From NCBI GenBank assembly GCA_002256025.1, contig NKIB01013542.1, positions 1-55,854 on the forward strand: 55,854 nucleotides of DNA. The letters run 5' to 3'. Below are positions 3,030 through 47,656 of this stretch, piece after piece. Source of the DNA: Asterionella formosa. Lineage: Eukaryota. Each line of letters begins with the position of its first letter. Position 1 is the stretch's first letter. The notes beneath the pieces were generated by a model. It saw only the letters and a list, made by a program, of their open reading frames with translations. It was not told the DNA's origin and searched no databases. The position numbers and the translations under genes were made by a program.

Positions 3030-3397
3030 GTTGTTGGCAGAACTCAGTTCCTTAGTTAAAGAATGAGCGATTTGTTGTTCAGAATCATGATTCTCTCTAT
3101 TACCCTACGCATCATGGAGTTACAACGAATGATGTTGATTTCATCAAAATCTTCACATGTAACAGCAGGAGTATACCGGTATACATATTATGCATTTTTC
3201 TTATGGATATTTATTTGTAAATGCACCGGTAAAGATTTATATAGAATTATTTTATGTAGAATTTAATTTGCTTCATGCCTCAATATTTATAAATGCAGGT
3301 GAATCATAAAAGAACAACATCACACCCTGTTCTATTTTTATACATACAGATATACTGTATTTACGGATTCTTTCCGGGTAGACTGAATTCACTTTAA

Positions 3398-4770
3398 GTC
3401 CCTGCATTTGAACCCTAGGCAAAAATTAAAATATTGCTTAGGGTTGCCGAAATTCCCTGGAACTAAGAACTTTTATGTGCTAATTTGAATATCAATGATT
3501 CCGTTTGAAATATTCAAATGAGTGGAAATTTGCGCGTACGTACATAGATTCCTTTTCGAATTCGCTAAAAAAATATATAAACATTCTACATTGCTACATG
3601 TATATATAGTAAGAACCTACACCGGTAATACGATCAACATATATGTGGCATACAAGCTGGCAGCATCATGGCAAATACTTTTGTTGATAACTACCGGTAA
3701 GAAACAAACAAACACAACAATCCACCATGAGCGAAATTTCACATTACAACAATGACAATGGCAATGACGAATTTAACTACAGCCATGACAGTTGTCCTAC
3801 CTGTCAAGACCGGTTGACTGTAGTTTTGGCTGTGGAGGGATGTGAGGATCACATCTTCTGCAAATACTGCGATTTTGGTTGCCCCAAATGTCAGTGCCAA
3901 TGGGATGCAGTCGAAGAGTTGGTGGAAAAGTTCTTGGAAGGTGAATCCATTCTCAGCAGAGTGAAGGATGAAGACATAACGGCATCAAGAGCCCGCAATC
4001 TTCTATACAAGTGTTTAATCAGAGTTTTCTGTGGTCCATTGGGAAAAGGTGTTCGGATGCAAATTCCTGACTGTTGTTTGAAGGGGGTTTGATCTCTTTT
4101 GAAGAACTTGGACACAAACGAAGAGTACACTGGCTTCGAACCTGTTTCTAAATGCTCTAAATCTAGCTAGTAGTGATCAGTTTTTTTATTATTTTCATTC
4201 ATTTCAATATATTTATCACTTCAATGCGCCTACATATGTCGGTTCAAAATCCTTTAGAAGCAAGTGAGGTGGCATGTATTCTTCGACTTTCTCTATATAA
4301 TTTTTTAACATTGTTCTATAGTTTAATAGTTTAACCCATCAATAGTAACAACAAACAATATAGACAACAACATCAACATGCCACGCACTACTAGTGGTGG
4401 CCGTCTCGTTTCCGAAATTGGAACTGGTGGACATTAGGTCGAAATGTCATCAGCGATGAAAATCAGAATTGGTGGTCATTGTCATCAGCATCCTCACCCC
4501 CTCTCCCCACAATTAAAGCGACTAAACAACAACAGAAACAACTACCACCTGAACAACAGAAAAGGAACCACTTTATCGACTGTAATTCATTCACCAGATT
4601 GTTGAATGACAATGTGATTTGCAAGAGTTGTGTAAATGCATATGTCAAAGAATGTTGTAAACAAGCAGTACAAGAAACCCTAACCGAAATTTCCAGTCTT
4701 TTTAGCATAGTAAAAAAACCGAAGTTCCTTTCTGCAGTATCTCGACAGATCCTATGTATATCCTGACGAG
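3398..4770 (+). mobile_element. Decayed TTAA-flanked DNA transposon left end, Kolobok-like; right end not found
   Basis: Begins right after TTAA (3394-3397). 3398-~3675 is homologous to 33697-~34240, which also begins right after TTAA. It carries two degraded ORFs (3727-4170 and ~4378-4766). Confidence 0.5.
3727..4170 (+). pseudogene. Cys-rich ORF with a P2X7-ballast/ZCD (KolX-like) C-terminal motif, interrupted by TGA at 4090-4092
   Basis: Reading through the stop gives RARNLLYK...GPLGKGVRMQIPDCCLKGV*SLLKNLDTNEEYTGF, resembling the LGKGxRxxIPxCxxxxIRxxFP...YTGF consensus. The stop falls at the conserved Arg position (CGA>TGA). Confidence 0.55.
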
Positions 4771-20867: not shown

Positions 20868-21596
20868 TCAAGAATTTCTCGATCCATTATTACAGACAAC
20901 ATACAGGCCAAACAACATAAATTCTGATACTACAGAATTTGCACTATGTCATCTTTCAGCTGGTCTGACACAGGTGACGGGATTATTATTGATTGCACTT
21001 AGATAAGCATCAGTCATAATTTTAGTTTACAAATTACTTTACAACAAGTTTTAGGATTGTATCACAACAGTTTTGGCATTCTCTGGACAAATATATTGCC
21101 TTGATTGTATACCATCTGCTAGTTTGTTATCAGGACCCATTCTCCTGCTCACCCCAACCACCAGCAAAGTGAGAAAGTGAGTATCTGCAAAGCAATGGCG
21201 TGTCTGCCCAAACTACACAGAAGGACAACAATATGAAGAAAAAAATCGGCAGTGTCAAGGACAAAGTCACAGGTGACAAGCTCAAGAAAAGGAGTTGGCA
21301 TTGATCAGACTGGAAAGCAACATGTTAAAGGGAAAGCAACCAGGGTAGTGCACCTACCACAAGAACATTGCAACTGTTACAATACAGTCTTTGAAAGTAC
21401 GGCCGGGATAAGACAGGATAATTTGTAAAGCATTTACTTTATCATGACTGATGCTAATCTAGTGCCACCAAAGAAATCATGGTATCTGCTGTGTCAGACT
21501 GACTGAAGGAGGATGTGGTGCAAATTCTGTGGTATCAGGATATGTTGCATGGCCTGTTGGTTGGCTGTCCGTAACAATGGATCAAGAAATTCTTGA
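20868..21596. mobile_element. Foldback-like element with ~200-bp diverged inverted arms
   Basis: 20868-~21085 is the imperfect reverse complement of ~21360-21596 (e.g. TCAAGAATTTCTCGATCCATT vs AATGGATCAAGAAATTCTTGA). Confidence 0.7.
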
Positions 21597-22344
21597 GTAG
21601 CTGCATGCCTTCATTACTCCGGTTCATTCAAGGTGATGATTGATAAGGTCTTTGCAATAGGTCTATCTTGAAGAGGCTTGGATGATTTAAGTATTAATTC
21701 AGGATGCTTTATGAACGAGTAAGCCGGCGCCCTTGTCAATCAAGCATTGTTTGGACAGTGGTCCGCTTCCTCCCTCTAACACAGCTGGATTACAACCTTA
21801 ACCACCTTCTTTTTTCCAAATCGGTATCCATTGTGTAGGGCAACAACTTTATCTTTAAATTTGTAAGTCATTGCACCTCAAATGTTGCTATCATCATTTT
21901 TCATCTGGATGGAAAATTCGAGTCTTTGAGTGGCTGGCTGATATAATCCTTCCCCTGCTCCTACACTGATTCCATCATTGACCCTAGTACATGGGACCCC
22001 TGCATGCAAATCCTCTCCTGCATACGAATCCTGCCTACTTGCAGGCACGTCCTTCTTGTAATGTTTTATTTCCTGCCTGTAAAGTGCCCCTTTTTTATGC
22101 TCTTGTGGGCGTCCTGAGCAAATTTTATTCTCTTTACGGAATAGATTTTTCCCGTAGCTGGCAAGCGTCATTTATACTCCGTAAAGAGTGATTATTCAGA
22201 TTATTTATTCAACAACTTTCTATTGTTGGGGCTTACAGCAACTTTTATTTTATGATATATTCCAAAGACACAAGTGTCAATGCATATCAGTAGAGGTATC
22301 CATCTCTGTAGCTTGGGCAGACACGCCGTTACTACCAGCAGAAG

Positions 22345-24000
22345 GATCTCCACTCTGATCAATGCCAAGTCATTTTTGAAGGTCTACACCTGCAACTTCG
22401 TCCTTGACACTGCAAACTTTTTCTTCGTCCTGTTGTCCTTCTCTGTATCTTGGGAAGACACGCCATTGCTTCGCAAATAATCACTTTCTCATCTTTCTGG
22501 TTGGGTTGAGCGTAATGGGTCTCGATATTATAACTCATTTATATAACGCCTTAGTAAGACTACACTGAGCGCTTCCTGGAATTTCCAGTCTGGGCCTCCC
22601 GTATCAACCCAACAAATGTGGTGACTTCTGGTGTTGGCACATGGGGAATTTTTTGGGTGAGTTGCACTGGCTCCCTTGCTTGAAGGGGTAAAGGATGCAA
22701 AGTGGTGCTTGATATGCTGAAGTTCATTCTTTCGCCTCATCTGTGATGAGTGAAGAAATTGGATGTCTTTCATTGTTGTGCTTTTTGTGGGTTTTTGGGT
22801 CACACTGATAGTTGCCGGGAACCCTCTTGGTGCCTGTGGATGCTGGGATAAAACTTGTTGAGAGATAGTTGACCATTGTTTGAAAGTTTTTCTTCGAAAT
22901 CATTAACAGAAAGTCAGCTTTTTCCGGAAATCTTCTTGTTGTGCCGCTTCTGAGTTTGAGCAAATTTGAAGTGGGTGCTGACATAGGTGTGAATCTCTGA
23001 CACAGATCAAGTGTTTTTGCTGATACATTTTTGTAATACGAACATACATATATGCGATTGGACGAAGTGTGAATTCTTTTCCTGGTGTAATACTGTTCCT
23101 TTCCTCGTGTAATACTGTTCCTTTCCTCCCGTGCCTTGGACGCCAGCGGAATGGGTCCTAAATGACTGTTATAGGGAAAGTGATCAGGGTAGGAATGCAT
23201 CTACCCAGAGAACATTGCAAATGTTACGATACAGTCCTTGAAAGTACTGGATAAGCCAGAATAATTTGTAAATCGTATCCTATATTACTATGGCTGATGC
23301 TTACTATCTATAGCTGGCTGGGTGCATCATGAAACTAAATTGGGCGGGTAGCTACCAGCCAGTACAACATAATTTTAGCTTAAGTAAAATGTTCTATAAA
23401 AAACATTCAAAAGAATAAATTTTTTGTATACATGCATCCGCAATCTCGTTGTTGCCATTGTTGAGTTCATTCGCTCACTTCGATTTGTCCATGGCACAGC
23501 AATGGATGCGAAATCGTTATAGTTGTTTAGTTGTAACTACTATAGCTAGGACCATATTTGAGACAGTCCTGCACAGTTTCAGCTCCAGCTTTCCCACTAT
23601 CAAGAGCTCTACCACATGAACAAGCCATTAGTCATGTAGGCGTGAATCTACGTGCCCAACACAAAATAGTGTATAGATAAACCAAATCGTTCCTCCCGTG
23701 CCGCTTCGTCCTATGTTCACTAGTAGCGCTGCTCATGGCGGAGATAAGGCTATTTGAAGCGGCGCGGAAGGTTGTTCTGTTGTTGAGTAATAACGACATG
23801 GTGAATTTAATTGCAGCATGCCAATTAAGGCGCAAAATATTACAAACAATAGGTTCAGTGTTTATGCTAATACTAGGAGGCCTATGGGGTCCATCCGGTG
23901 CCCCCAAAAATTGCATTCAGCCGTAAGTGCAACCAATAATAATCCCTTCAGTTGTATCCGACCAGCTGAAGGATTCAAAATCTGTGGTATCAGAATAAAT
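22345..24000 (-). mobile_element. Second, longer, inverted copy of the foldback family, with its arm split by an insertion
   Basis: 22345-22525 is the reverse complement of 21130-21315. 23200-23310 plus 23924-24000 match the arm at 21355-21545. Confidence 0.6.
23311..23923. mobile_element. Non-autonomous TA-targeting (Tc1/mariner-type) insertion
   Basis: Interrupts the arm sequence ATCTA|AGTGCA with TA on both sides (23309-23310 and 23924-23925). Short imperfect terminal repeats TGGCTGGGTGCA / TGCATTCAGCCG. Confidence 0.6.
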
Positions 24001-31807: not shown

Positions 31808-33696
31808 TTTTCTGTTTCGAAGTTGATCAGTGAAGGAGATAACGTGATTGGGATGAGGAAGTGTTACGAATTGTGAGCACACGTGGGGCCTTCGAGACTT
31901 TTTTCGTTGTCACTCCCCGTACACATTTAGTACTACCGGTATATGCAGAGTAACAATCAAATAATAGTCATCGATGTAATAGACAATAATATACATGTAA
32001 ATGCATCCACCCAACTTACGATAATAGCTGTTTATATGATGTGCACTTAGAACGAGAAGATATGCTATCAATGACATCGGAGCTCTTAAAACAAACCAGA
32101 ATGTCTGCTTATCAGTAATGCCAATGACCATATTGATGCCCTTTAATTGCACTGCCGAAACGGTTGTTCATTGATATAGATGTAGGCAATATCTTGTAAT
32201 TTTAAGTGATTTAGAATAGATCCCATTAGTCATAATGCCACCAACTGTAGGGAATTCCAACCATCTGGGATGATTTGTGAGTCCATATATAGGGTGCATA
32301 GTGTTTGAAGTTGTCATTCATTATGGCTGAATTTCTCCCGCTGCATAGCTAGGAGACATTCATGATTTATGTCTGCATGGGGACACAGATAAAATAGTTC
32401 CTCACAAATAAAATACCGTCATCAGTGTGACCTGATGAACGACTACGCATTTACTCCGAGTACCGGTATGTAGCAGGGAAAGAGGAAAGCTAAGTATCTT
32501 GTACGAGGTACTAGTAGGAGACGACTCATGAAATGTGGCGGTTTGTTCAACTTTGAGCTATCAAATTGGATGGTTTCATGCGTCATCCTTCTGTTCCGTT
32601 TCATACGGTTACATGGAATAGAACATACCCATAAATGACTGAGTATCGCAGCGATGCAAATTCGCGACGTCTATGTAAAGCTCAACATGCCAATTAAATG
32701 ACTCCGGAATATACACTTCTCTATTTTTAGACTACAAGGTGTATTGTTAATGTCGATCTGGTAAATGACCTGGTACTACTTTACCGGTAGTCTGACTTCC
32801 AGTTCCAAGGTGACGTACCTGGTACCAGGTACCGGTACCTGGTACATTGAATGTCCGATAATGCCAACACGGAGGCATTAACTCTTGGAGTACCTAATAG
32901 TGCTGTAACTATAGTACCTGGTACCGGACTGACAAACATGGCTGCACAAAAAGGTCATAACATGCGAAAAAGTCATGACCTCATAGACATATTATATAAT
33001 AATAAGCATTGGCCAATACGAAGAACCGGCAGTACCTGGTACCTGGTACTGAGTAGCAGGGTAACCAACAAAAGTAAACACGATGTAGTATTAAAAACGA
33101 TGAGTCATGACTGCATGGACATTATACACAGGAAAAGGATTAATGTTATGTGCATATAAGCATACATCTGCTGAAAGCGGTATTCCTAGCTTCCTAGCTA
33201 TGTTCTGAACAAAAGCCCATTGGGGTTGTGGAAACAGCCTAAGAAATGGGGAAAGCAAGTGACCCCCCCATTCATGCGGCCTTTGCCGCCTAGACAACCT
33301 CCGGAATAGTCATTCATTCCTGCTCCATACTCTTGCCTGGACGGCTCAGTAGCGCACGTTTTATGCGCTCTTATTCAGTTTCGACTCACTCCCAATGATT
33401 CGTCCGATGCCTTTTACCGGATTAGATAGATTGGCTTTCCATTCCTCTCTATGATGTTAAATTATCATTCATTAAATCCATGTCGTGTTCACCTACTGCT
33501 ACCTGTACTGGCATTCACCAACTTGAAGACGGTTTGCTTATAAGGTTCACCAATGAGTAATTTCTAGTCTTAGTCAGCAATTTCTAATCGTGGTTGTCAG
33601 CAGATTTCTAGTCTTACGTAGTCACCAACGGGATCAGTACAGGTAATCGTAAACAAAAGAGTCATTTTGAAAATGTCAATGGACTACCGGAATTAA

Positions 33697-34240
33697 GGTT
33701 CCTGCATTTCAACACCCTACATAGGAAAAAATTAAAATATTGCTCAGGGTTGCCGAATTCCCTGGAATTAAGAATTTTATGAGCTAATTTTGAATGACAT
33801 GATTCCATTTGAAATATTGTTTAAATCAATGGAATGGGGAATAGCTTACCAGGTAGCTGGTTAGCTCACCTTCCAAGGTGGCGGGTTCGATTCCCGCAGT
33901 CTCCACCTGCTTTGTTTATGTGGTCCCTAGGGTTCCGGATGGTGAGGCAGACAACAAGCAGGTCTACACAAGGCACTTTGGGGGCCAAGTGCAACTTCAC
34001 AACCTCCACAATTGTCGAGTTCTTTAACAATAGTGCATGCACTATAAAATTTACTTCATAATTTTAAATCTTTTTATTTAAATCAATGGAAATTTGCACA
34101 TACATACATAGATCCCTTTTCGAATTCTCTAAATCTGAATATAAAGATATATAAACACATTCTACATCGCTCGATGTATAGTCTATATACCCTATAATAT
34201 GATCAACATACATGTGTCATAGTACAAGCTGGCAGCATGG
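33697..34240 (+). mobile_element. Second copy of the TTAA-flanked Kolobok-like left end, interrupted by a SINE
   Basis: TTAA|GGTTCCTGCATTTC..., colinear with 3398-3675. Confidence 0.65.
33835..34076 (+). mobile_element. tRNA-derived SINE-like retroposon, copy 1
   Basis: Exact 15-bp target-site duplication TTTAAATCAATGGAA (33820-33834 and 34077-34091). tRNA-like head with B box GGTTCGATTCC and an AT-rich tail. It is absent from the paralogous site at ~3513-3527. Confidence 0.85.
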
Positions 34241-34999
34241 CATTATATTACTAGTACTGGTATGCATGTGGTACCAGGCAGGTAGTGGATACAGTTCTGG
34301 CAAACAACCCAAAAAAGATACATGTGCATCAAGTTTGCAAGGCCCTGCAGATCAGGCCAATCAAATCTAGGTAAGTAATTCAGATTGGCCAATCATATTA
34401 TATCCGGATGCGCACTTACAATGGAATTTGTTGGACAAAGCTGAAACAGATAAGTCAAATGAATCTTGTTTGTATCTCCAAAATCAGCCCAGTCGTGATC
34501 TTTTGAGTCTAGTCATGAACATGAATCAATCTTTACTCATATATGAAGCAATCTTTGAGTCTGCCTTGCCATAGTAAACATGAGTCGATTTACTCATTTA
34601 TGACTTAATTTTGTTGGTTTGGTTTGCTAAAAGTTAATTCTATAAGCTCACTTTATTTGGAAATATCAATACTAGAGTCAAATCTATCTACCAACAATCT
34701 CCTAAATTCACCATGATCCTTTGGTCCACTGCCTACTAGCACCTATGTTTTTGCTGAGTATATCAATATTTACTATTTTTCAATAAGTCGAACTCCTTTC
34801 AGGTTGATCTATGACTTCTCTTTCAAGTGACACCAGGAGATTTTAGGACAAAAAATTCCGCCACATGACTACTATTCTAATGTTGACATTTCGGCTCATA
34901 GTCATTCTGATTCCGATATTTTGGAGACTGTAGAAAAGGCCGATTTTTTGAATTTTTGGACAAGCAAAAATAGCTCAACATTGGCTTGGTCTGAAGGCG

Positions 35000-36650
35000 A
35001 TTTCAATTGATAATGTGTTTCATAGCCCATTTGTACTCCCCCTTTTCAAGGCAAGTATTAATTGTGCTGCCTGCTGACAAGATCTGTGCTTGTTCCCTAG
35101 TTGTGTTAGCGTAGGTGAGTCCCCAACCACATTTCGTGAAATTTGACCCCCTTGGCCACAGCGTTAGAGGAAACTCCAACATCCTAGGAAGGCGGCACAA
35201 CCTGATATGTTCAAAATAGGAAAGCGTCGCTCTCAATTTTCGTAGAGATTTCCGATAGCCTGTATTTTTTGCTAACTAACCTGCTTGTGTATTTTATAAC
35301 TTAGACTCTTCAATACTGGACTAAATTCATCTGTGTGCCTGTTCCTCCAAATCGAGATAGCTCTTTGTTTGTGTATGCCGGTCTATACTCCGAAGTTGTG
35401 GCCTTCTCATGACCATCTACAAAATAGTGTTTTGCTCTGATTTTGTACCTGAATCCAACAAGCAATATGCATCCAGCGTACTATTGTAGACATGGATATA
35501 CACTTTAAAACATATCTCCTAAGACAAATTCCTTTGTTGCTGCTGTCGCGAAAATTTCCCCGAAATTGTTGTTGTTTGTTGTAGTATCATCTTCAAATCC
35601 TTGCCCAAGACTCTTCATTGTAGCTGGTATCAAGCTCTCATGCAAATAGCAATGCTTCAAATCTATGGACAGCTCCTTCAAGTGACACACTCTGTATCAT
35701 TTAGCATCCATAGCATCTGAGTGCTCCCAGAAATATGTTGGAATTGATTTCTTGAATGAAGGTGCCTTCAAGAAGAAAGTATCATCACATCTTGTAACAA
35801 TTCGACGATGCCATCGCTATAAAGATCGCCAGTTTGTGTAGACTTCGATACCAACATTGTTCATTTCACTAATAGAGTGCATGATGAAATTTTGTGGCCA
35901 TGTCCATCTCATTCCATTGTGTGCTTCATTAAAAAACTTGTGTAGTGCAACCACCAAATACATGCACCTTTGTCAAATGACAAAAATATCATTTGAGCGC
36001 TGCATATGTTTTCCTTGTCCCCTTCCTCTACATCAAGTTTCCAAGTGCTTGAATTCCAAGTAGTTCAATTCTTTCCACGAAGATTTTCTTCACATTGTAA
36101 CTATTGCTCTATGACAATATTCTTCACATTGCAACTATCGCTGTATTTTTCAGATGGCGCAAAAAGAAGCCGGGCATCGCCAGAGGTCCACCAGGAACAT
36201 GTGGTTGATTGTTCTCATTAAGTGAGTTGGAACAACAAGACTCATCTGCTATAACATCAATATCCTTGCTTTGTCAACGAAATTGAAAGTTCTTTAATTG
36301 GTGGTGGGATTATCATTTTTCCTCATCAACATTGTTGAAATATCATCAATGACGCACTACATTGTCACCCCTCCCCCTACACACTTGCTTTGTAACATAC
36401 GTATCCAACCAGCCAAATAATGCTTTCTTTCCAGATGAAAACTCAGGCATGTCTTCTCCTTCCATTGTCAGGTACAGAAACTCACTCCGACCACTTCCTT
36501 TCTCACGATAACCATGCCAGCCAATACATGTCAACCAGAACATTTTCCGCCAGAACCACTTTATTTGCCTCTCTTCCTCCTGTCTTTCTGTGAATTTTAA
36601 AAACAGTTCATGTCAGCATGGCCTTGGTGAACTTCATGTCATCTTCGACA
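35000..36650 (-). pseudogene. Decayed transposase-like gene (probably IS630/Tc1/mariner-related), with many stops and frameshifts
   Basis: Remnant ISMSTIVRWMH / GFRYKIRAKHYFVDGHEK (35403-35456) resembles the LGFxY...KxxYVDGHE motif I associate with eukaryotic DDE transposases. Confidence 0.45.
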
Positions 36651-37323
36651 TTAAATCTAATTGTATGGCTGTGGTCACACAAGAACTCAATTGGAATCCA
36701 TTTCAGCCGGTAGGAACTTTCTGCGCAAATAGTTTTAAAATAGCTCAAAATTAACTGAGAATGCGAGGAGCCCTCGCAGATCCATCAACTTATTCTTTAA
36801 ATCCAGACTGTTGAGATACTCAAACCGGAGTTGGATCCGCAAGATCGCAATAAGGTACAAAGAAAAGCGACGGTCAGAGATGGCCCTTGTACTAATGGCA
36901 AAACAACAAGCATTTTTACGCGCTATTTTATATTTTAGAAGGGTTAGGGTTATGCGTTGTACTAGGTACACAAGCCTACATGATACATTAAATCTAAGGT
37001 GTATGTGGTCACGCAAGAGCTCTATTGGAATCCATTTCAGTCGGTAGGAACTTTCTGCGCAAATAATTATAAAATAGCTCAAAATTAACTGAGAAGAATG
37101 CGAGCCCTCGCAGAGGATCCATCGACTCATTCTTTAAATCCATACTGTTGAGATACTCAAACCGGAGTTGGATCTGCAAGATCGCAATAAGGTACAAAGA
37201 AAAGCGACGGTCAGAGATGGCCATTGTAATGGCAAAACAATAAGCATTTTTGCGCGCTATTCTATATATTTTAGAAGGGTTAGGGTTATGCGTTGTACTA
37301 GGTCTACACAAGCCTACATGATG
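36649..37323. repeat. ~335-bp tandem duplication, each unit containing GGGTTAGGGTTA
   Basis: 36649-36984 and 36985-37323 align throughout with small indels. Confidence 0.92.
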
Positions 37324-37399
37324 TCCTCAAAGTTTGCACCCAGCCATACAAACAGATTTGACACTTTCACAGTATGCAACAAACTACACTATGGTAATC

Positions 37400-37710
37400 T
37401 GTAGGTCAAACCAAATCTCGTTTGATTCTCTATTTAAGTAATGTCAATTGAAAGTCCATTGACATTTCCAAAATGACTCTTTTGTTTATGTTTGCTGATC
37501 CAGCTGGTGACTACATGTGACTAGAAATCTGCTGACAACGACTAGAACTGCTGATGTAGGTCAAACAAAATCTCGTTTGATTCTCTAGTATTTAAGTAAT
37601 GTAAATTAAAAGTCCATTGCCATTTTCAAAATGACTCTTTTGTTTATGATTGCTGATCCAGCTGGTGACTACATGTGACTAGAAATCTGCTGACAACAAC
37701 TAGAACCTCT
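37400..37710. repeat. ~155-bp tandem duplication at the inner edge of the right inverted arm
   Basis: GTAGGTCAAAC.AAATCTCGTTTGATTCTCTA...AGAAATCTGCTGACAAC occurs twice. Confidence 0.88.
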
Positions 37711-38235
37711 TACAATGATTAGAATTTGCTGACTACAACTAGAAACTGCTGACTAACAGGTACAATTGGAAATTGCTGACTATGACTGGAAGTTACTGAT
37801 TGGTGATTCCATTAGCAAACCGTCATCCGGTTGCTGAATACCATTAACAGAAGTAGTACTAGGTGAACACAATTTCAATGATGAGAACACAACTTGGATT
37901 AAATGAATGATAATTTAACATTGAAGAAAGTGACTTAAGAGAGTTTGGAATGAAAAGCCAGTCTACCTCATCTGGCAGGCATGAGACAATCCATTGGGAG
38001 TGCGTCGAAACTGAGAAGGTGCGCATAAAACGCGAGCTACAGGACCTTCCAGGACAGCCGAGTGAGTAGACTACCCTTACAAATACCACAGTGACAGCAT
38101 TAGAAGCAGTTCAGACAGAAAATTTTGTCACAAGGCAGGAACCAATGATTACCACAATCAAGGCCATGATGCAAAACAAAACCCCAAGCTTGCATGACAC
38201 TGCTTCTAGGATCGATAATATTTATTATGAAATTT

Positions 38236-39902: not shown

Positions 39903-39992
39903 GCAAGTTGCGGAAATTTTGCTGAAACTAAAAGTTTAGCTATCTTTATCCCATATTAAATTGTTAGTTCAAGCAAAATTACCGCAACGTGC
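39903..39992. mobile_element. 90-bp mini-MITE, copy 1
   Basis: ~29-bp terminal inverted repeats GCAAGTTGCGGAAATTTTGCTGAAACTAA / TTAGTTCAAGCAAAATTACCGCAACGTGC; homologous to 45247-45336. Confidence 0.8.
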
Positions 39993-43600: not shown

Positions 43601-45034
43601 TCACTTCTCAGCACATAAGAATCGAACCCCTTTGTGTCGCAGACCCGATGTGTTTTGCTTTCGCTCTCGCTCTTTCAACAATGTCACGTCCCTCTTGTCC
43701 TTTTGCACCACTTCACTGAGTTGCACCAACGTTTTATAGTGTTCAGTCAAAACGCTTGTCAATATTGTTTTATCCGGCAAATCTATATCCTGAAGTATAG
43801 GAGGTTTCGCGTTCCGCACTGAGTCCAACATGGCGCCGACTTGTTTTATGTGACGTCGCATGGCCACAAGTCGTTCCATCGCATTGATTTCTTCATCCTG
43901 AAATGGTATATTCATGCATCTGACTATTTCAACCTTTCTCATAGTTTCTAATAGGCGCCTGTTAAGGCCCATATGAATGCGTACTAGGGCCGCGAGTTCT
44001 TCCTTGTATTGCTGCACTCGTTGTTCCACGCTAGCTCTTGTTGCTTCCAACAGTTCAACTCCTTGGTGCAAAGAATGAGCGCGCTCTTGTTGCCACCCCA
44101 AGCGAGCCTGAAGGGCTTCAGCGCCGACCAAAGCCATGGGAAGGTAGAGGGTAGGATTTGGATTGCGAACCACCGCATTCAACCAGTCCTTCTCTGAAAC
44201 CTGTGGAGGTTTCGGAGGGATGGCCAACGAGCCTGCCTGGGAGTGTGCAAAGTGCCACTGGAGCTGTTCGGGAGTCATGTCATTGTAAACAATACTCACA
44301 AAAGGGGAACTTTCGCTAGAAGAATTAGATACGCCATTGTACGAGTTGTAGAGGCTTTCCAGGGAACTTTGTATCTTAGCTGCTTCCTGACGCGCCGAGG
44401 CATCGGCGTGGGCTTGAAGCGCTGCTTGCGCAGGTATTTGGTATTGCTGTGGAGCAGGTGTTGGCGTCCCAAACAGACTACTTGGAGCTGGGGCAGGCGC
44501 TCCAAACAGACCACCAGTTGCGGGTGCTGGAGCTCCAAACATTCCACCACCACCAGGTGCTGGCGCTCCAAATAGACCACCAGTAGCGGGTGCTGGAGCT
44601 CCAAACATTCCACCACCAGCAGGTGCTGGCGATCCAAATAGACCACCAGTTGCGGGTGCTGGAGCTCCAAACATTCCACCACCAGCAGGTGCTGGCGCTC
44701 CAAATAGACCACCAGTAGCGGGTGATGGAGCTCCAAACATTCCACCACCAGCAGGTGCTGGCGTTCCGAATAGACCACCAGAAGTAGCTGGTGGTGGTGC
44801 TCCAAAGAGTCCACCAGTAGCAGGTGCAGGTGCAGATGCCCCAAAGAGACCGCCACCAGCAGGTGCCGGTGATCCGAACATACCACCACCAGAAGAAGCT
44901 GGTGCTCCAAATAGGCCACCAGAAGCAGGTGCTGGAGCTGATGATCCAAAAGCCAACGGGGTTGTTGCTGAGCCAGCAGCGCTGTTAGAACCTCCCGGAA
45001 CGGAAAAGACTTGATTTGGTCCCCATGAAACCAT
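43601..45034 (-). CDS. NUP54: FG-repeat nucleoporin Nup54 (Nup57-like)
   Basis: N-terminal GGLFG/GGMFG repeats, followed by W..AVVRNPNPTLYLPMALVGAEALQARL..Q and a coiled coil, as in the Nup54 family. Confidence 0.82.
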   Translation of the reverse strand: MVSWGPNQVFSVPGGSNSAAGSATTPLAFGSSAPAPASGGLFGAPASSGGGMFGSPAPAGGGLFGASAPAPATGGLFGAPPPATSGGLFGTPAPAGGGMFGAPSPATGGLFGAPAPAGGGMFGAPAPATGGLFGSPAPAGGGMFGAPAPATGGLFGAPAPGGGGMFGAPAPATGGLFGAPAPAPSSLFGTPTPAPQQYQIPAQAALQAHADASARQEAAKIQSSLESLYNSYNGVSNSSSESSPFVSIVYNDMTPEQLQWHFAHSQAGSLAIPPKPPQVSEKDWLNAVVRNPNPTLYLPMALVGAEALQARLGWQQERAHSLHQGVELLEATRASVEQRVQQYKEELAALVRIHMGLNRRLLETMRKVEIVRCMNIPFQDEEINAMERLVAMRRHIKQVGAMLDSVRNAKPPILQDIDLPDKTILTSVLTEHYKTLVQLSEVVQKDKRDVTLLKERERKQNTSGLRHKGVRFLCAEK

Positions 45035-45246: not shown

Positions 45247-45336
45247 GCAAGTTGCGGTATTTTTGCTGAAACTGAGGATTTAGCTGTCTTTATCCCAGAT
45301 TAAAATGTTAGTTAAAGCAAAATCACCGGAACTTGC
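45247..45336. mobile_element. 90-bp mini-MITE, copy 2
   Basis: GCAAGTTGCGG...CCGGAACTTGC, colinear with 39903-39992. Confidence 0.8.
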
Positions 45337-47656
45337 TACGTACGATGGTACCTACAACGTGTACCGGTACCAGTACCTTTACCGGTGGACTAATAACCAC
45401 GAAGTGGACTCTCGTCAATTTTTATTTGTGTTGGATAATATTTTCATGCACCATAATTCATAAGCCAACCTTGGATGATTTTCGAGACAAAATCCTGCTG
45501 TTCTAATTTTGAATAGAATTGATTGTTAAGAACAACCATTTGTCAGCTAACAAAAGTAAATATTCGAATGGAGAGTGTTTGAAGTAATTTATATTCGTGA
45601 AGGTCAAGAACATTGAATATCTACAGATGCATTTGGAAAGTGATCCTTAATAATTGGTCATATGAATGATTACACCATAGATAAAATAAGTTGAGAATTA
45701 AGTCGGATTGGAAGGTTTTAGTTCGCTTATCTAGATAGAGCTAGCAATGCAGTCAGACTGCAAAAGAGTTTAACAAGTCTTACTACAGATAAGACTGGTA
45801 GACCAGGAGGATAGTATATCTACTAATGTATTATTCACCATCCCAGCCAGTATGAACTCTTACTGGTATTGTGAATATAAACTACCATTGTACATGCATA
45901 CTACTATGTATTTGTTATTTCCTTACAATTTTTGACCAGCTCAATTTCAAAAAATTGATCTTTTTCTTGTTGTAGACCATATTAGTCTGCATATAAAGAA
46001 AGTAGTATATTTGTAGATTACTGGAGATCTAAATTATGGACCTGCTGGTGGTACTCCCTCTGGTTGAAAATAGTTGCGGCAATTTGCAGTGGCTCAAGTG
46101 CCAAGCAGCTTATTTAAGACGGATTATGTTGAAATTATACCATTTTCTACATGAGGGTCAACTTACTCAGAAAATGCTTTTTAAGAGTTTCATAGATGTG
46201 AACATGTACTCTGTTCCTGTAATTAAATTATTAGCATCTAAAGTTTTTCTCAAAACCAGCCAGTTGAATGATCCATGTGGAAGTTTTGTGGTTACTGTTG
46301 GTAGTAAGGTCCTGTTTGTGTCTCCCTACATTAACGACAAGATAACTGGTGAAAAAAGGCTATTCAAGTCAAGATGAAGAGCGCAAAAGCTCCAGGAACA
46401 ATGTATGTGTGTTGTGGGATAGATACCTCACCAGTTCAATCACAGGAAACTTTGGAAGGGCTCGTAATCATGTTGGCAGAAGTGCTGCGGTTTTGGAGTT
46501 GCTCCAATACAATTCCAGTAACCCAGAAAAATGGCGCATGGATATTCAAGGATATGGAGTCGTGGGAACTTTTGCAAATGCATGAGGACCCATTCTTCTT
46601 CGAACCATCTATTCTCAACATACCAATAAACTAGGATATGATAGTAGAATAACGGCAACTTGCCTTTGATTATGTATTGCGCAACCATGAAAGTGGCGAG
46701 GAAGGGAAAGGAAAAAACGATGCTATGCTTATTTTGATGATGCGAGCCATGAAGATCAGGCGTTATAGTCAATTTAAATGTAAGAACCATAGAAATTCTA
46801 TGAAATAACTGTGCTTCTTTCTTGGTTTTTTTATCACATTTTCTAGGTTTTTAATCAGAATTATAATAGTGACATGTATTATTCTGTTTCCCGTAAATAT
46901 TTGAATGGTCGTCGGCTGATGACGCAAAACATGCCCAGCCAAGAATTTAAACAGCATATCGTGGTGATATGTAAATGCACACAATAAATGCATTTAGCAT
47001 ACTCAACTGGTTTCGATTAATTTGTTTAGACACGAATAATTCAATTAGCAATTCAGAGTTCATATTCACGTCTATGTAACTCAGTAAAAACGTCTTTTTC
47101 GAGTCATAAACCGACCCTCACGTCGAGATTTTGTATGTGCCTACGTAATCCGTCCTAACTATAAGCTGCTCGGCACTTGAGTCGTGTGAAATCGATGCAA
47201 GTGTTATTAGACAGACGAGAGTATGGTCTAGTACTTTTTACCAGTACAAGGTTTAAGCCTGCCTATAGCTAGTATGTTCCTACATATACTGTAGTGACTG
47301 GTACCCTGGTACCAGCCAGGAGTACTCAGGGGTGGTAGGAACAGAGGTCGCTGAAAGTATACTGCCGTGTTGGATATTAAGCACCAGTATCAGTATGATA
47401 CCAGCATCATGCTGTCATTTCATTTTCGAAATACCATACTGTTTTAGAATTTTACCAGTATACTGATCAAGCTTGCCAGTTTACTGCTAAGTATGAATCT
47501 TACAGAAAATCCTACATGTCTTGTAAAGGATTGGAGTACGAATTCCTCTTCGTGCATACATCATAGGCTAGGAGCACCAAAATTAGTAGATCAAAACCAG
47601 CATAACATCATCACATCATCACTAAAACTACCACAAAAACTAAAATTGCGCAACCT

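What the first reader, a model, noticed from the sequence alone, without database searches (positions are those of the whole stretch)
33638..37590. Paralogue comparisons show TA-[C..G]-TA motifs are insertions: pervasive excision-footprint mutagenesis
Seen in the sequence: where a repeat has a sister copy in the window, one copy often has a short C- and/or G-bounded insert plus an extra TA. Cases are TA-CAGG-TA at 33638-33645 (vs GATCAGCAATC in the 37.6-kb arm), TA-CA-TA at 33718-33723 (vs CCCTAGG near 3413), TA-CCAGG-TA at 33847-33855 (removing it restores the SINE A box TAGCTTAGCTGG), TA-G-TA at 34220-34224 and at 37586-37590, TA-C-TA at 36890-36894 and at 23302-23306, and CA-CCGG-TA at 3620-3627. 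Established: Tc1/mariner elements duplicate TA and leave TA + terminal bases + TA on excision, and the Mos1 left end begins CCAGG. Inference: an extremely active TA-targeting element with C(C/A)...G termini has repeatedly inserted and excised, making footprints a major local source of indels.
Basis: partly seen in the sequence, partly recalled or inferred. Interest (0 to 1): 0.82.

Follow-up and report, generated by a model that had tools for sequence, protein, structure and literature searches.

The report
Two insertion-scar systems in a diatom
The tiny TA-framed words in this freshwater diatom are real insertions of two kinds: TA-specific CC..GG scars that match the ends of resident jumping genes, and a far commoner scar (any two bases duplicated around G, C or GC) whose maker was not found.

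Summary
Seven of the eight motifs are insertions when polarised against other copies in G000; 23302 is unresolved. TACCGGTA (17 vs 0.27 expected) and TACCWGGTA (24 vs 0.25) are strongly enriched. The single-element reading is too simple. (I) CCGG inserts occur only at TA (14 of 14) and match young DD35D pogo elements bounded TA|CCGTA...TACGG|TA: probable excision footprints. (II) The TA-G-TA and TA-C-TA cases belong to a class about 30 times commoner, NN-G/C-NN and NN-GC-NN at many dinucleotides, TA being 58 of 229. Slippage does not explain it, C...G-ended elements cannot give the GC order, and no fitting element was found in 934 kb. (III) CCWGG units sit mostly in arrays. No CCAG-ended element was found, and an 88-bp CWG-duplicating MITE uses them as targets. 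The scan reported the CC(W)GG scars and NN-GC-NN before on other DNA of this genome. Footprints are a known kind of mark; the density and class II are the unusual parts.

The parts
33638..33645 (.). TA-CAGG-TA, 6-nt insertion at TA in the left arm of a decayed element
   Evidence: absent from 6 of 6 other copies; identical in a contig of run X3
33718..33723 (.). TA-CA-TA insertion in a multi-copy repeat
   Evidence: absent from 14 of 14 other copies
33847..33855 (.). TA-CCAGG-TA, 7-nt de novo insertion at the TA of the SINE 5' box
   Evidence: in none of 29 other SINE copies; 4 of them carry a CCGG-type insert at the same TA (sample biased by the query)
33836..34076 (+). SINE-like repeat flanked by a 15-nt direct repeat (33820-33834 and 34077-34091)
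   Evidence: 433 first-look candidates; alignment; flanks
34220..34224 (.). TA-G-TA, 3-nt insertion of the NN-G/C-NN form
   Evidence: contigs lacking the 3 nt in all four runs laid, probably paralogues
36890..36894 (.). TA-C-TA, 3-nt insertion of the NN-G/C-NN form; not an exact tandem duplication
   Evidence: 24 partners lack it, 1 same length
37586..37590 (.). TA-G-TA, 3-nt insertion of the NN-G/C-NN form; not an exact tandem duplication
   Evidence: 3 of 3 other copies shorter
23302..23306 (.). TA-C-TA, polarity unresolved; lies just before a TGGCTGG-ended element
   Evidence: one mismatched sister
3620..3627 (.). CA-CCGG-TA, a decayed TA-CCGG-TA insertion
   Evidence: absent from 2 copies, shared as TA-CCGA-TA by L202
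21141..21145 (.). CT-C-CT, a non-TA member of the NN-G/C-NN class that differs between populations
   Evidence: 3 nt absent at full depth in runs X2, X3, X7, X8; context
32816..32844 (.). array of stacked units TA-CCTGG-TA-CCAGG-TA-CCGG-TA-CCTGG-TA
35254..37346 (-). decayed TA-duplicating TIR element with TGGCTGG ends (host of the 36890 site); left limit approximate; holds a 337-bp tandem duplication
33336..38053 (.). outer element with degenerate inverted arms of about 350-450 bp (33336-33685 and 37611-38053)
39903..39990 (+). 88-bp MITE inserted in a TACCAGGTA site with CAG duplicated
   Evidence: 1075 first-look candidates
45247..45334 (+). second copy of the 88-bp MITE

Best explanation
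The motifs are real insertions made by at least two processes. Class I (TA-CCGG-TA, rarer CCGGG/CCCGG and CCG/CGG): excision footprints of resident DD35D pogo elements ending CCG...CGG. Shown: the elements, their TA duplication, and TA-only insertion of CCGG. Inferred: cleavage leaves CCG 3' overhangs on both flanks; pairing of the self-complementary CG gives CCGG, a 1-nt overlap gives CCGGG/CCCGG; each scar supplies two new TAs, so scars can stack. TA-CAGG-TA and TA-CA-TA fit the CAG-ended family in the same way (inferred). Class II (NN-G-NN, NN-C-NN, NN-GC-NN, including the TA-G-TA and TA-C-TA cases): a 2-nt staggered break at an AT-rich dinucleotide with one G left on each 3' end, joined with or without overlap. 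Most likely the footprint of an unidentified, possibly extinct element with G...C ends and a loose 2-bp target (about 0.5), otherwise host repair adding G (about 0.35). Class III (CCWGG, CCAG, CCAGGG): at least sometimes de novo insertions at TA, mostly in arrays; probably footprints of an unseen CCA(G)-ended element, extended by re-insertion and some slippage.
For: PF03184 gave 93 matches in G000; L034-L043 are 99.0-100% identical. Complete elements read TA|CCGTA...TACGG|TA (L051, L056, L075, L080) and an empty site shows one TA (L075 vs L062). A pattern for these ends gives 610 matches vs 126 control. Among 648 polarised indels from 242 sequences (934 kb): TA-CCGG-TA 7; unpolarised CCGG-centred inserts 14 of 14 at TA, background 6.3%. 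L008 has TA-CCGGG added to a TA-CCGG-TA that L164 has alone. Class II: 167 of 198 3-nt and 62 of 87 4-nt insertions fit, 79 and 48 of them not exact duplications; unique centres G 40, C 39, A 6, T 3 vs 56% G+C under duplication plus one substitution, P 5e-12. TA share is 42 of 167 for 3-nt and 16 of 62 for the GC form, so the TA excess is intrinsic to class II. Tc1/mariner footprints copy the first or last 2-4 element bases (PMC6943129, passages); Passer leaves 0-4 bp (PMC9976928, passages).
Against: No locus was seen with an element on one allele and a footprint on another. About 100 TACCGGTA words per extant CCG-ended element (75 per 200 kb, against about 480 ends) needs very high turnover. 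A TIR scan that recovered the pogo families and the MITE found no G...C family with a free 2-bp duplication in 934 kb, although class II events outnumber CCGG events 229 to 7. No CCAG-ended element was found, and CCWGG was 0 of 5 polarised 7-nt insertions in the automated set (the SINE case comes). Exact slippage alone would class 73% of 3-nt duplications as fitting, so only the non-duplicate subset and the centre bias count. The sample is repeat-biased and 1.4% of the genome.
Confidence: 0.62

Rival explanations
1. One extremely active TA-targeting, Mos1-like C(C/A)...G element made all the motifs.
For: All eight cases are TA-framed; TA is 4-fold over-represented even in class II (58 of 229 vs 6.3%); a 4-nt CCAG overhang could in principle give CCAG, CCWGG and CCAGGG (inference).
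Against: 171 of 229 G/C/GC inserts duplicate other dinucleotides. The 4-nt form has centre GC 22 times and CG once among 30 unique cases, while C...G ends would give CG. PF01359 found nothing (but its control did not ring either, and a DD39D mariner missed by the family searches turned up). Ends found were CCG, CAG, CTC and TGG.
Confidence: 0.08
2. Class II is host double-strand-break repair: a nuclease makes 2-nt 5' staggered cuts, fill-in duplicates the dinucleotide and a polymerase adds one untemplated G per end.
For: No source element in 934 kb; no flank consensus beyond the dinucleotide; WW-GC-WW is enriched equally (1.77-fold) in repeat and unique non-ORF DNA and not in ORFs (0.95); a non-TA case differs between populations.
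Against: The centre is nearly invariant (G, C or GC; GG or CC once among 30 unique 4-nt cases), whereas untemplated addition is usually mixed (own knowledge); 2-nt insertions are only 42 against 198 3-nt. An apparent C enrichment 5' of the site vanished when duplications were removed. No polymerase or nuclease gene was searched.
Confidence: 0.3
3. The inserts are replication slippage or templated copies of adjacent sequence, later mutated.
For: 90 of 198 3-nt and 15 of 87 4-nt insertions are exact tandem duplications; one extra 7-nt unit in the 18198 array differs between populations; adjacent CCWGG units have the same orientation 45 times vs 30.
Against: 79 3-nt and 48 4-nt inserts of the class are not duplications; simulated slippage gives 0 such cases and 14% GC-centred 4-mers vs 71% observed; only 2 of 90 duplicated 3-mers lack G/C; CCGG and CCAGG inserts have no adjacent template; 30 opposite-orientation neighbours cannot come from slippage alone.
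Confidence: 0.07
4. The 88-bp MITE is itself a TA|CCWG...CWGG|TA element and its excision makes TA-CCWGG-TA.
For: Its ends sit in (G)TACCWG context in most of 40 flank-unbiased ends; CCAG and CCTG overhangs would anneal to CCWGG (inference).
Against: W is the same on both sides in 38 of 50 complete copies and inverted in 4, with both A and T within one interior type; conservation falls from 0.88-0.97 inside to 0.78, 0.71, 0.69, 0.61 over C, C, A, T outside; TA on both sides in only 15 of 50. This fits a CWG duplication with target preference (NuwaI-like; PMC4482050, passages).
Confidence: 0.12

Closest known systems
Canonical excision footprints of Tc1/mariner elements (Sleeping Beauty TACAGTA/TACTGTA; PMC6943129, passages read)
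   Same: TA duplication framing 2-4 bases equal to the element's terminal bases; candidate donors are TA-duplicating TIR elements in the same genome.
   Different: Here inferred from genome comparison, not from an excision assay; the dominant word is CCGG from CCG ends; density is about 0.76 per kb of unique non-ORF DNA; CCWGG has no donor.
Passer family of pogo, DD35D (PMC7386202 and PMC9976928, passages read)
   Same: [quoted passage not shown]
   Different: No tree was built, so Passer versus Fot-like is open; the published footprint sequences are in a figure I could not see; families A and B carry a second small ORF.
NuwaI group of PHIS/Harbinger elements (PMC4482050, passages read)
   Same: CWG duplication of the 88-bp MITE; PF13359 transposases are abundant in G000.
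   Different: No autonomous partner with the MITE's TIR was found; NuwaI is described mainly from animals.
No close match found for NN-G/C/GC-NN
   Same: Geometry resembles a footprint with a 2-bp duplication and a 1-nt remnant.
   Different: Not TA-specific; centre independent of the flank, unlike hairpin-type (hAT, CACTA) footprints (own knowledge). Paper searches returned nothing describing it (listings only).

Membership tests
Tc1/mariner/pogo excision footprint (class I, CCGG) | Insertion restricted to TA, with TA duplicated | tested here: met
   14 of 14 CCGG-centred inserts at TA
Tc1/mariner/pogo excision footprint (class I, CCGG) | Insert equals terminal bases of a resident TA-duplicating element | tested here: met
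   families A, B, D end CCG...CGG with TA
Tc1/mariner/pogo excision footprint (class I, CCGG) | Element seen at the same site before the footprint | not testable with these tools
   no filled/footprint allele pair in 934 kb or in four runs over 20 kb; needs population or experimental data
Tc1/mariner/pogo excision footprint (class III, CCWGG/CCAG) | Resident element with CCA(G) ends | tested here: inconclusive
   none found; CCA variants 5 of 76 exact ends; family searches are insensitive
Tc1/mariner/pogo excision footprint (class II, G/C/GC) | Restricted to TA | tested here: not met
   58 of 229 at TA
Tc1/mariner/pogo excision footprint (class II, G/C/GC) | Insert matches ends of resident ITm elements | tested here: not met
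   GC 22 vs CG 1; resident ITm ends are C...G or T...A
pogo DD35D (Passer/Fot-like) for families A and B | DDE_1 domain with D35D spacing, TIRs, TA duplication | tested here: met
   PF03184 E 1.1e-21 for L051; spacing counted by hand for family A; TIR/TSD
pogo DD35D (Passer/Fot-like) for families A and B | Placement in the Passer clade | not tested
   no phylogeny built
mariner DD34D (Mos1-like) | PF01359 transposase and CCAGG end | tested here: inconclusive
   0 matches, control silent
NuwaI (88-bp MITE) | CWG target-site duplication | tested here: met
   W direct in 38 of 50; full 3-mer identical in 23 of 50; a 1-bp W duplication with G..C-extended ends reads the same
NuwaI (88-bp MITE) | Cognate two-ORF Harbinger-type autonomous element | tested here: inconclusive
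   none found next to the TIR in 10 loci read

The most novel reading that the evidence does not exclude
The dominant small-insertion process in this diatom is an undescribed one: a 2-nt staggered cut at AT-rich dinucleotides with an obligatory single G left at each 3' end, made by a host enzyme or by a transposon type with no described footprint. It outnumbers 1-nt insertions (229 vs 68), makes in-frame 3-nt gains, and acts beside a cascade in which pogo scars stack into arrays that a Harbinger-type MITE then uses as landing sites.
Probability: 0.35. Interest if true: 0.8.

Novelty: new variant of a known kind. Interest (0 to 1): 0.56.

Why it matters
If right, small insertions in this genome come mainly from stereotyped break-and-join events, not slippage: 3-4 nt insertions exceed deletions of the same size about tenfold (285 vs 27). 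For comparison, Phaeodactylum mutation-accumulation lines showed few indels (PMC6604790, passages). The scars record past transposon activity about 100-fold beyond the extant copies, seed TA arrays in non-coding DNA, and point to an unidentified element or repair enzyme that can be sought directly in strain resequencing or mutation-accumulation lines.

Tried and rejected
Family searches of G000 with PF13358, PF01359 and PF02992 found nothing; the last two had silent controls, and PF13358 missed elements that hmmscan later hit, so none shows absence. Harbinger-type families were checked as donors of class II: ends GGG with TNA, or AGT in one copy, do not fit. The TGGCTGG family looked like a G...C element with an AT duplication, but empty sites (L234 vs 4 copies, L123 vs 4 of 5 copies) show TA duplication and T...A ends. 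CpG decay of CCGGG as the source of CCAGG was rejected: the partner product TACTGGGTA is 3 vs 81. CCA-ended pogo variants are too rare. A Spo11-like C preference 5' of class II sites was an artefact of conditioning. A cross-species test with 80 metagenome loci confirmed CCGTA ends in relatives, but flanks were too short to relate ends to scar words. MITE flanks were biased by the query and were redone from a pattern search. The apparent hot spot at the SINE TA is biased by the query. PMC13469147 (passages) has no footprint data.
Full report
Setting. The window is G000:C13542, in a 68.4-Mb assembly of 15,436 contigs. It holds intron-poor eukaryotic genes (a BRR2-type helicase, a beta-CASP protein, an RSN1/OSCA-type channel). 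A nearby locus has a chlorophyll-binding protein, transposase relatives are annotated in Fragilaria crotonensis and Nitzschia inconspicua, and the stretch occurs in freshwater metagenomes. I call it a freshwater diatom on that basis.

Observation. All eight motifs are where stated. TACCWGGTA occurs 24 times (0.25 expected), TACCGGTA 17 times (0.27) and TASTA 117 times (77). In 200 kb taken from other large contigs (arbitrary positions, not a formal random sample) the counts are TACCGGTA 75, TACCWGGTA 57 and TACCAGTA/TACTGGTA 56, against 1.7, 1.7 and 7.4. They avoid ORFs: 2 of 41 lie in the 20 kb of long ORFs in the window, and TACCGGTA is 0.76 per kb in unique non-ORF DNA vs 0.11 in ORFs. Against other copies, seven sites are insertions: 33638, 33718, 33847, 34220, 36890, 37586 and 3620. 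Site 23302 has one mismatched sister and stays open. An independent run reproduces 33454-33674 exactly.

Indel spectrum. I aligned all 242 sequences then held (934 kb; L001, L002, L081 and L201 left out as copies of the window) and kept clean-flanked indels where at least three partners agree against the query: 5,452 raw, 883 polarised, 648 after removing shared events. Insertions vs deletions: 1 nt 68/104, 2 nt 42/18, 3 nt 198/18, 4 nt 87/9, 6 nt 20/6, 7 nt 5/4. Of the 3-nt insertions, 167 read NN-G-NN or NN-C-NN, 79 of them not exact duplications, and 21 have no 2-bp duplication. Unique centres are G 40, C 39, A 6, T 3. Of the 4-nt insertions, 62 read NN-GC-NN, 48 not duplications; unique centres are GC 22, CA 3, GT 2, AA 1, CC 1, CG 1. 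The duplicated pair is TA in 58 of 229, AA/TT in 54, CA/TG in 43.5, AT in 22, GA/TC in 18.5, AG/CT in 17. Simulated slippage classes 73% of 3-nt duplications as fitting, so the raw fraction is weak. But it gives no non-duplicate cases and only 14% GC-centred 4-mers, and duplication plus one substitution gives 56% G/C centres against 79 of 88 (P 5e-12). The TA share is the same for the 3-nt form (42 of 167) and the GC form (16 of 62). A non-TA member, CT-C-CT at 21141, is absent from all four other populations laid.

CC..GG inserts behave differently. TA-CCGG-TA appears 7 times in the polarised set, and all 14 unpolarised CCGG-centred inserts are at TA. CCGGG/CCCGG appears twice, once added to an older CCGG scar that a sister copy has alone (L008 vs L164). 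CCWGG appears twice unpolarised and once polarised by hand in the SINE. It differs in context: 42 of 57 abut another unit, against 11 of 75 for CCGG, and neighbours have the same orientation 45 times and the opposite 30 times.

Candidate donors. PF03184 gave 93 matches. Family A (ends CCGTAAAACC) has ten copies 99.0-100% identical and complete TA-flanked copies of about 2.46 kb; its D35D spacing was counted by hand. Families B and D also end CCGTA, family C ends CAGTG. An empty site shows a single TA. A pattern for A/B/D ends gives 610 matches vs 126 control; among the first 100 listed I counted 71 exact CCG ends and 5 CCA. Relatives in metagenomes keep the CCGTA end, two read CCATA. Also present: a DD39D-type mariner with TA|CTCCCTC ends, a TA|TGGCTGG family with no Pfam hit and 267 candidates, and Harbinger-type elements with GGG ends. 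By the known rule that Tc1/mariner footprints copy the terminal 2-4 bases (PMC6943129, passages; Passer 0-4 bp, PMC9976928, passages), CCG ends give CCGG, CCG/CGG and CCGGG, and CAG ends give CAG, CA/TG and CAGG. These joins are my inference. No element ending CCAG was found. A TIR scan that recovered families A, B, C and the MITE found no G...C family with a free 2-bp duplication; it needs both ends within 6 kb in one locus and three loci sharing the end.

The MITE. An 88-bp element (1,075 first-look candidates) sits in (G)TACCWG context in flank-unbiased samples. W is repeated directly in 38 of 50 complete copies and conservation drops outside the CWG, so it uses TACCWGGTA as a target and probably does not make it. 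CWG duplication defines NuwaI (PMC4482050, passages).

Verdict. Class I footprints from CCG-ended pogo elements: about 0.75. Class II is a separate process: about 0.9; its cause is an unseen G...C element (0.5) or host repair (0.35). Class III donor unknown. Against the reading: no before-and-after allele, about 100 scars per extant element, and no class II donor despite 229 events against 7. The sample is 1.4% of the genome and repeat-biased.

Prior work. Earlier scan notes on this genome already report the TA-CC(W)GG-TA scars, NN-GC-NN without a donor, and the MITE as a user of the arrays. They are unchecked AI notes and not support. I reached the class split, the pogo ends and the MITE reading before the first look-up. 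Ten paper searches were answered (listings only); none showed such scars in diatoms. The library lacks most subscription journals, and I did not open supplements or figures, which may hold the Passer footprint sequences. Statements on hairpin-type footprints, untemplated addition and the names SINE, Stowaway-type, Kolobok-like and ITm-like are from my own knowledge.

Noticed in passing
window 35254-37346 (-); L242, L244, L237-L241; P0085: TA-duplicating TIR family with TGGCTGG...CCAGCCA ends encoding a roughly 1000-aa protein with no Pfam or PDB match; 267 candidates in G000 including near-identical young copies; 134 long homologues, some in Fragilaria and Nitzschia.
   Followed up: partly
window 39903-39990 and 45247-45334: 88-bp MITE with CWG duplication that lands preferentially in TACCWGGTA arrays; longer and tandem forms exist (L181, L107, L083).
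   Followed up: yes
L131, L141-L160: Harbinger-type family with dozens of identical copies at contig ends, TNA|GGGTCGTTC left end; probably very recently active.
   Followed up: partly
window about 46052-47224; L328:269-2838: DD39D-type mariner and derivatives with TA|CTCCCTC ends; TA-CTC(C/G)GAG-TA, a possible footprint, occurs 8 times in 934 kb.
   Followed up: partly
L075:1380-1838 and 247 first-look candidates in G000: Small second ORF shared by pogo families and the DD39D-type element; earlier notes call it HIRAN-like, which I did not test.
   Followed up: no
L166:1812-4896; L178; L171: Harbinger-type elements with GGGCGC ends; one has an AGT duplication, as in the Pangu group.
   Followed up: no
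L062:3716-4922; related repeat at window 33690-33818 and 3394-3514: Element with TTAA-flanked GGTTGC ends, Kolobok-like by recall.
   Followed up: no
window 17828, 18198, 21142: Short indels that differ between the window and other populations: +ACGG, +7-nt array unit, and -3 nt.
   Followed up: partly
window 20868-23996: Local cluster of four to five direct and inverted copies of a 150-190 bp sequence, interrupted by a TGGCTGG-ended element at about 23315-23925.
   Followed up: no
window 44421-44968 (-): 33-bp tandem repeat encoding GG(L/M)FG repeats in a nucleoporin-like ORF (name by recall).
   Followed up: no
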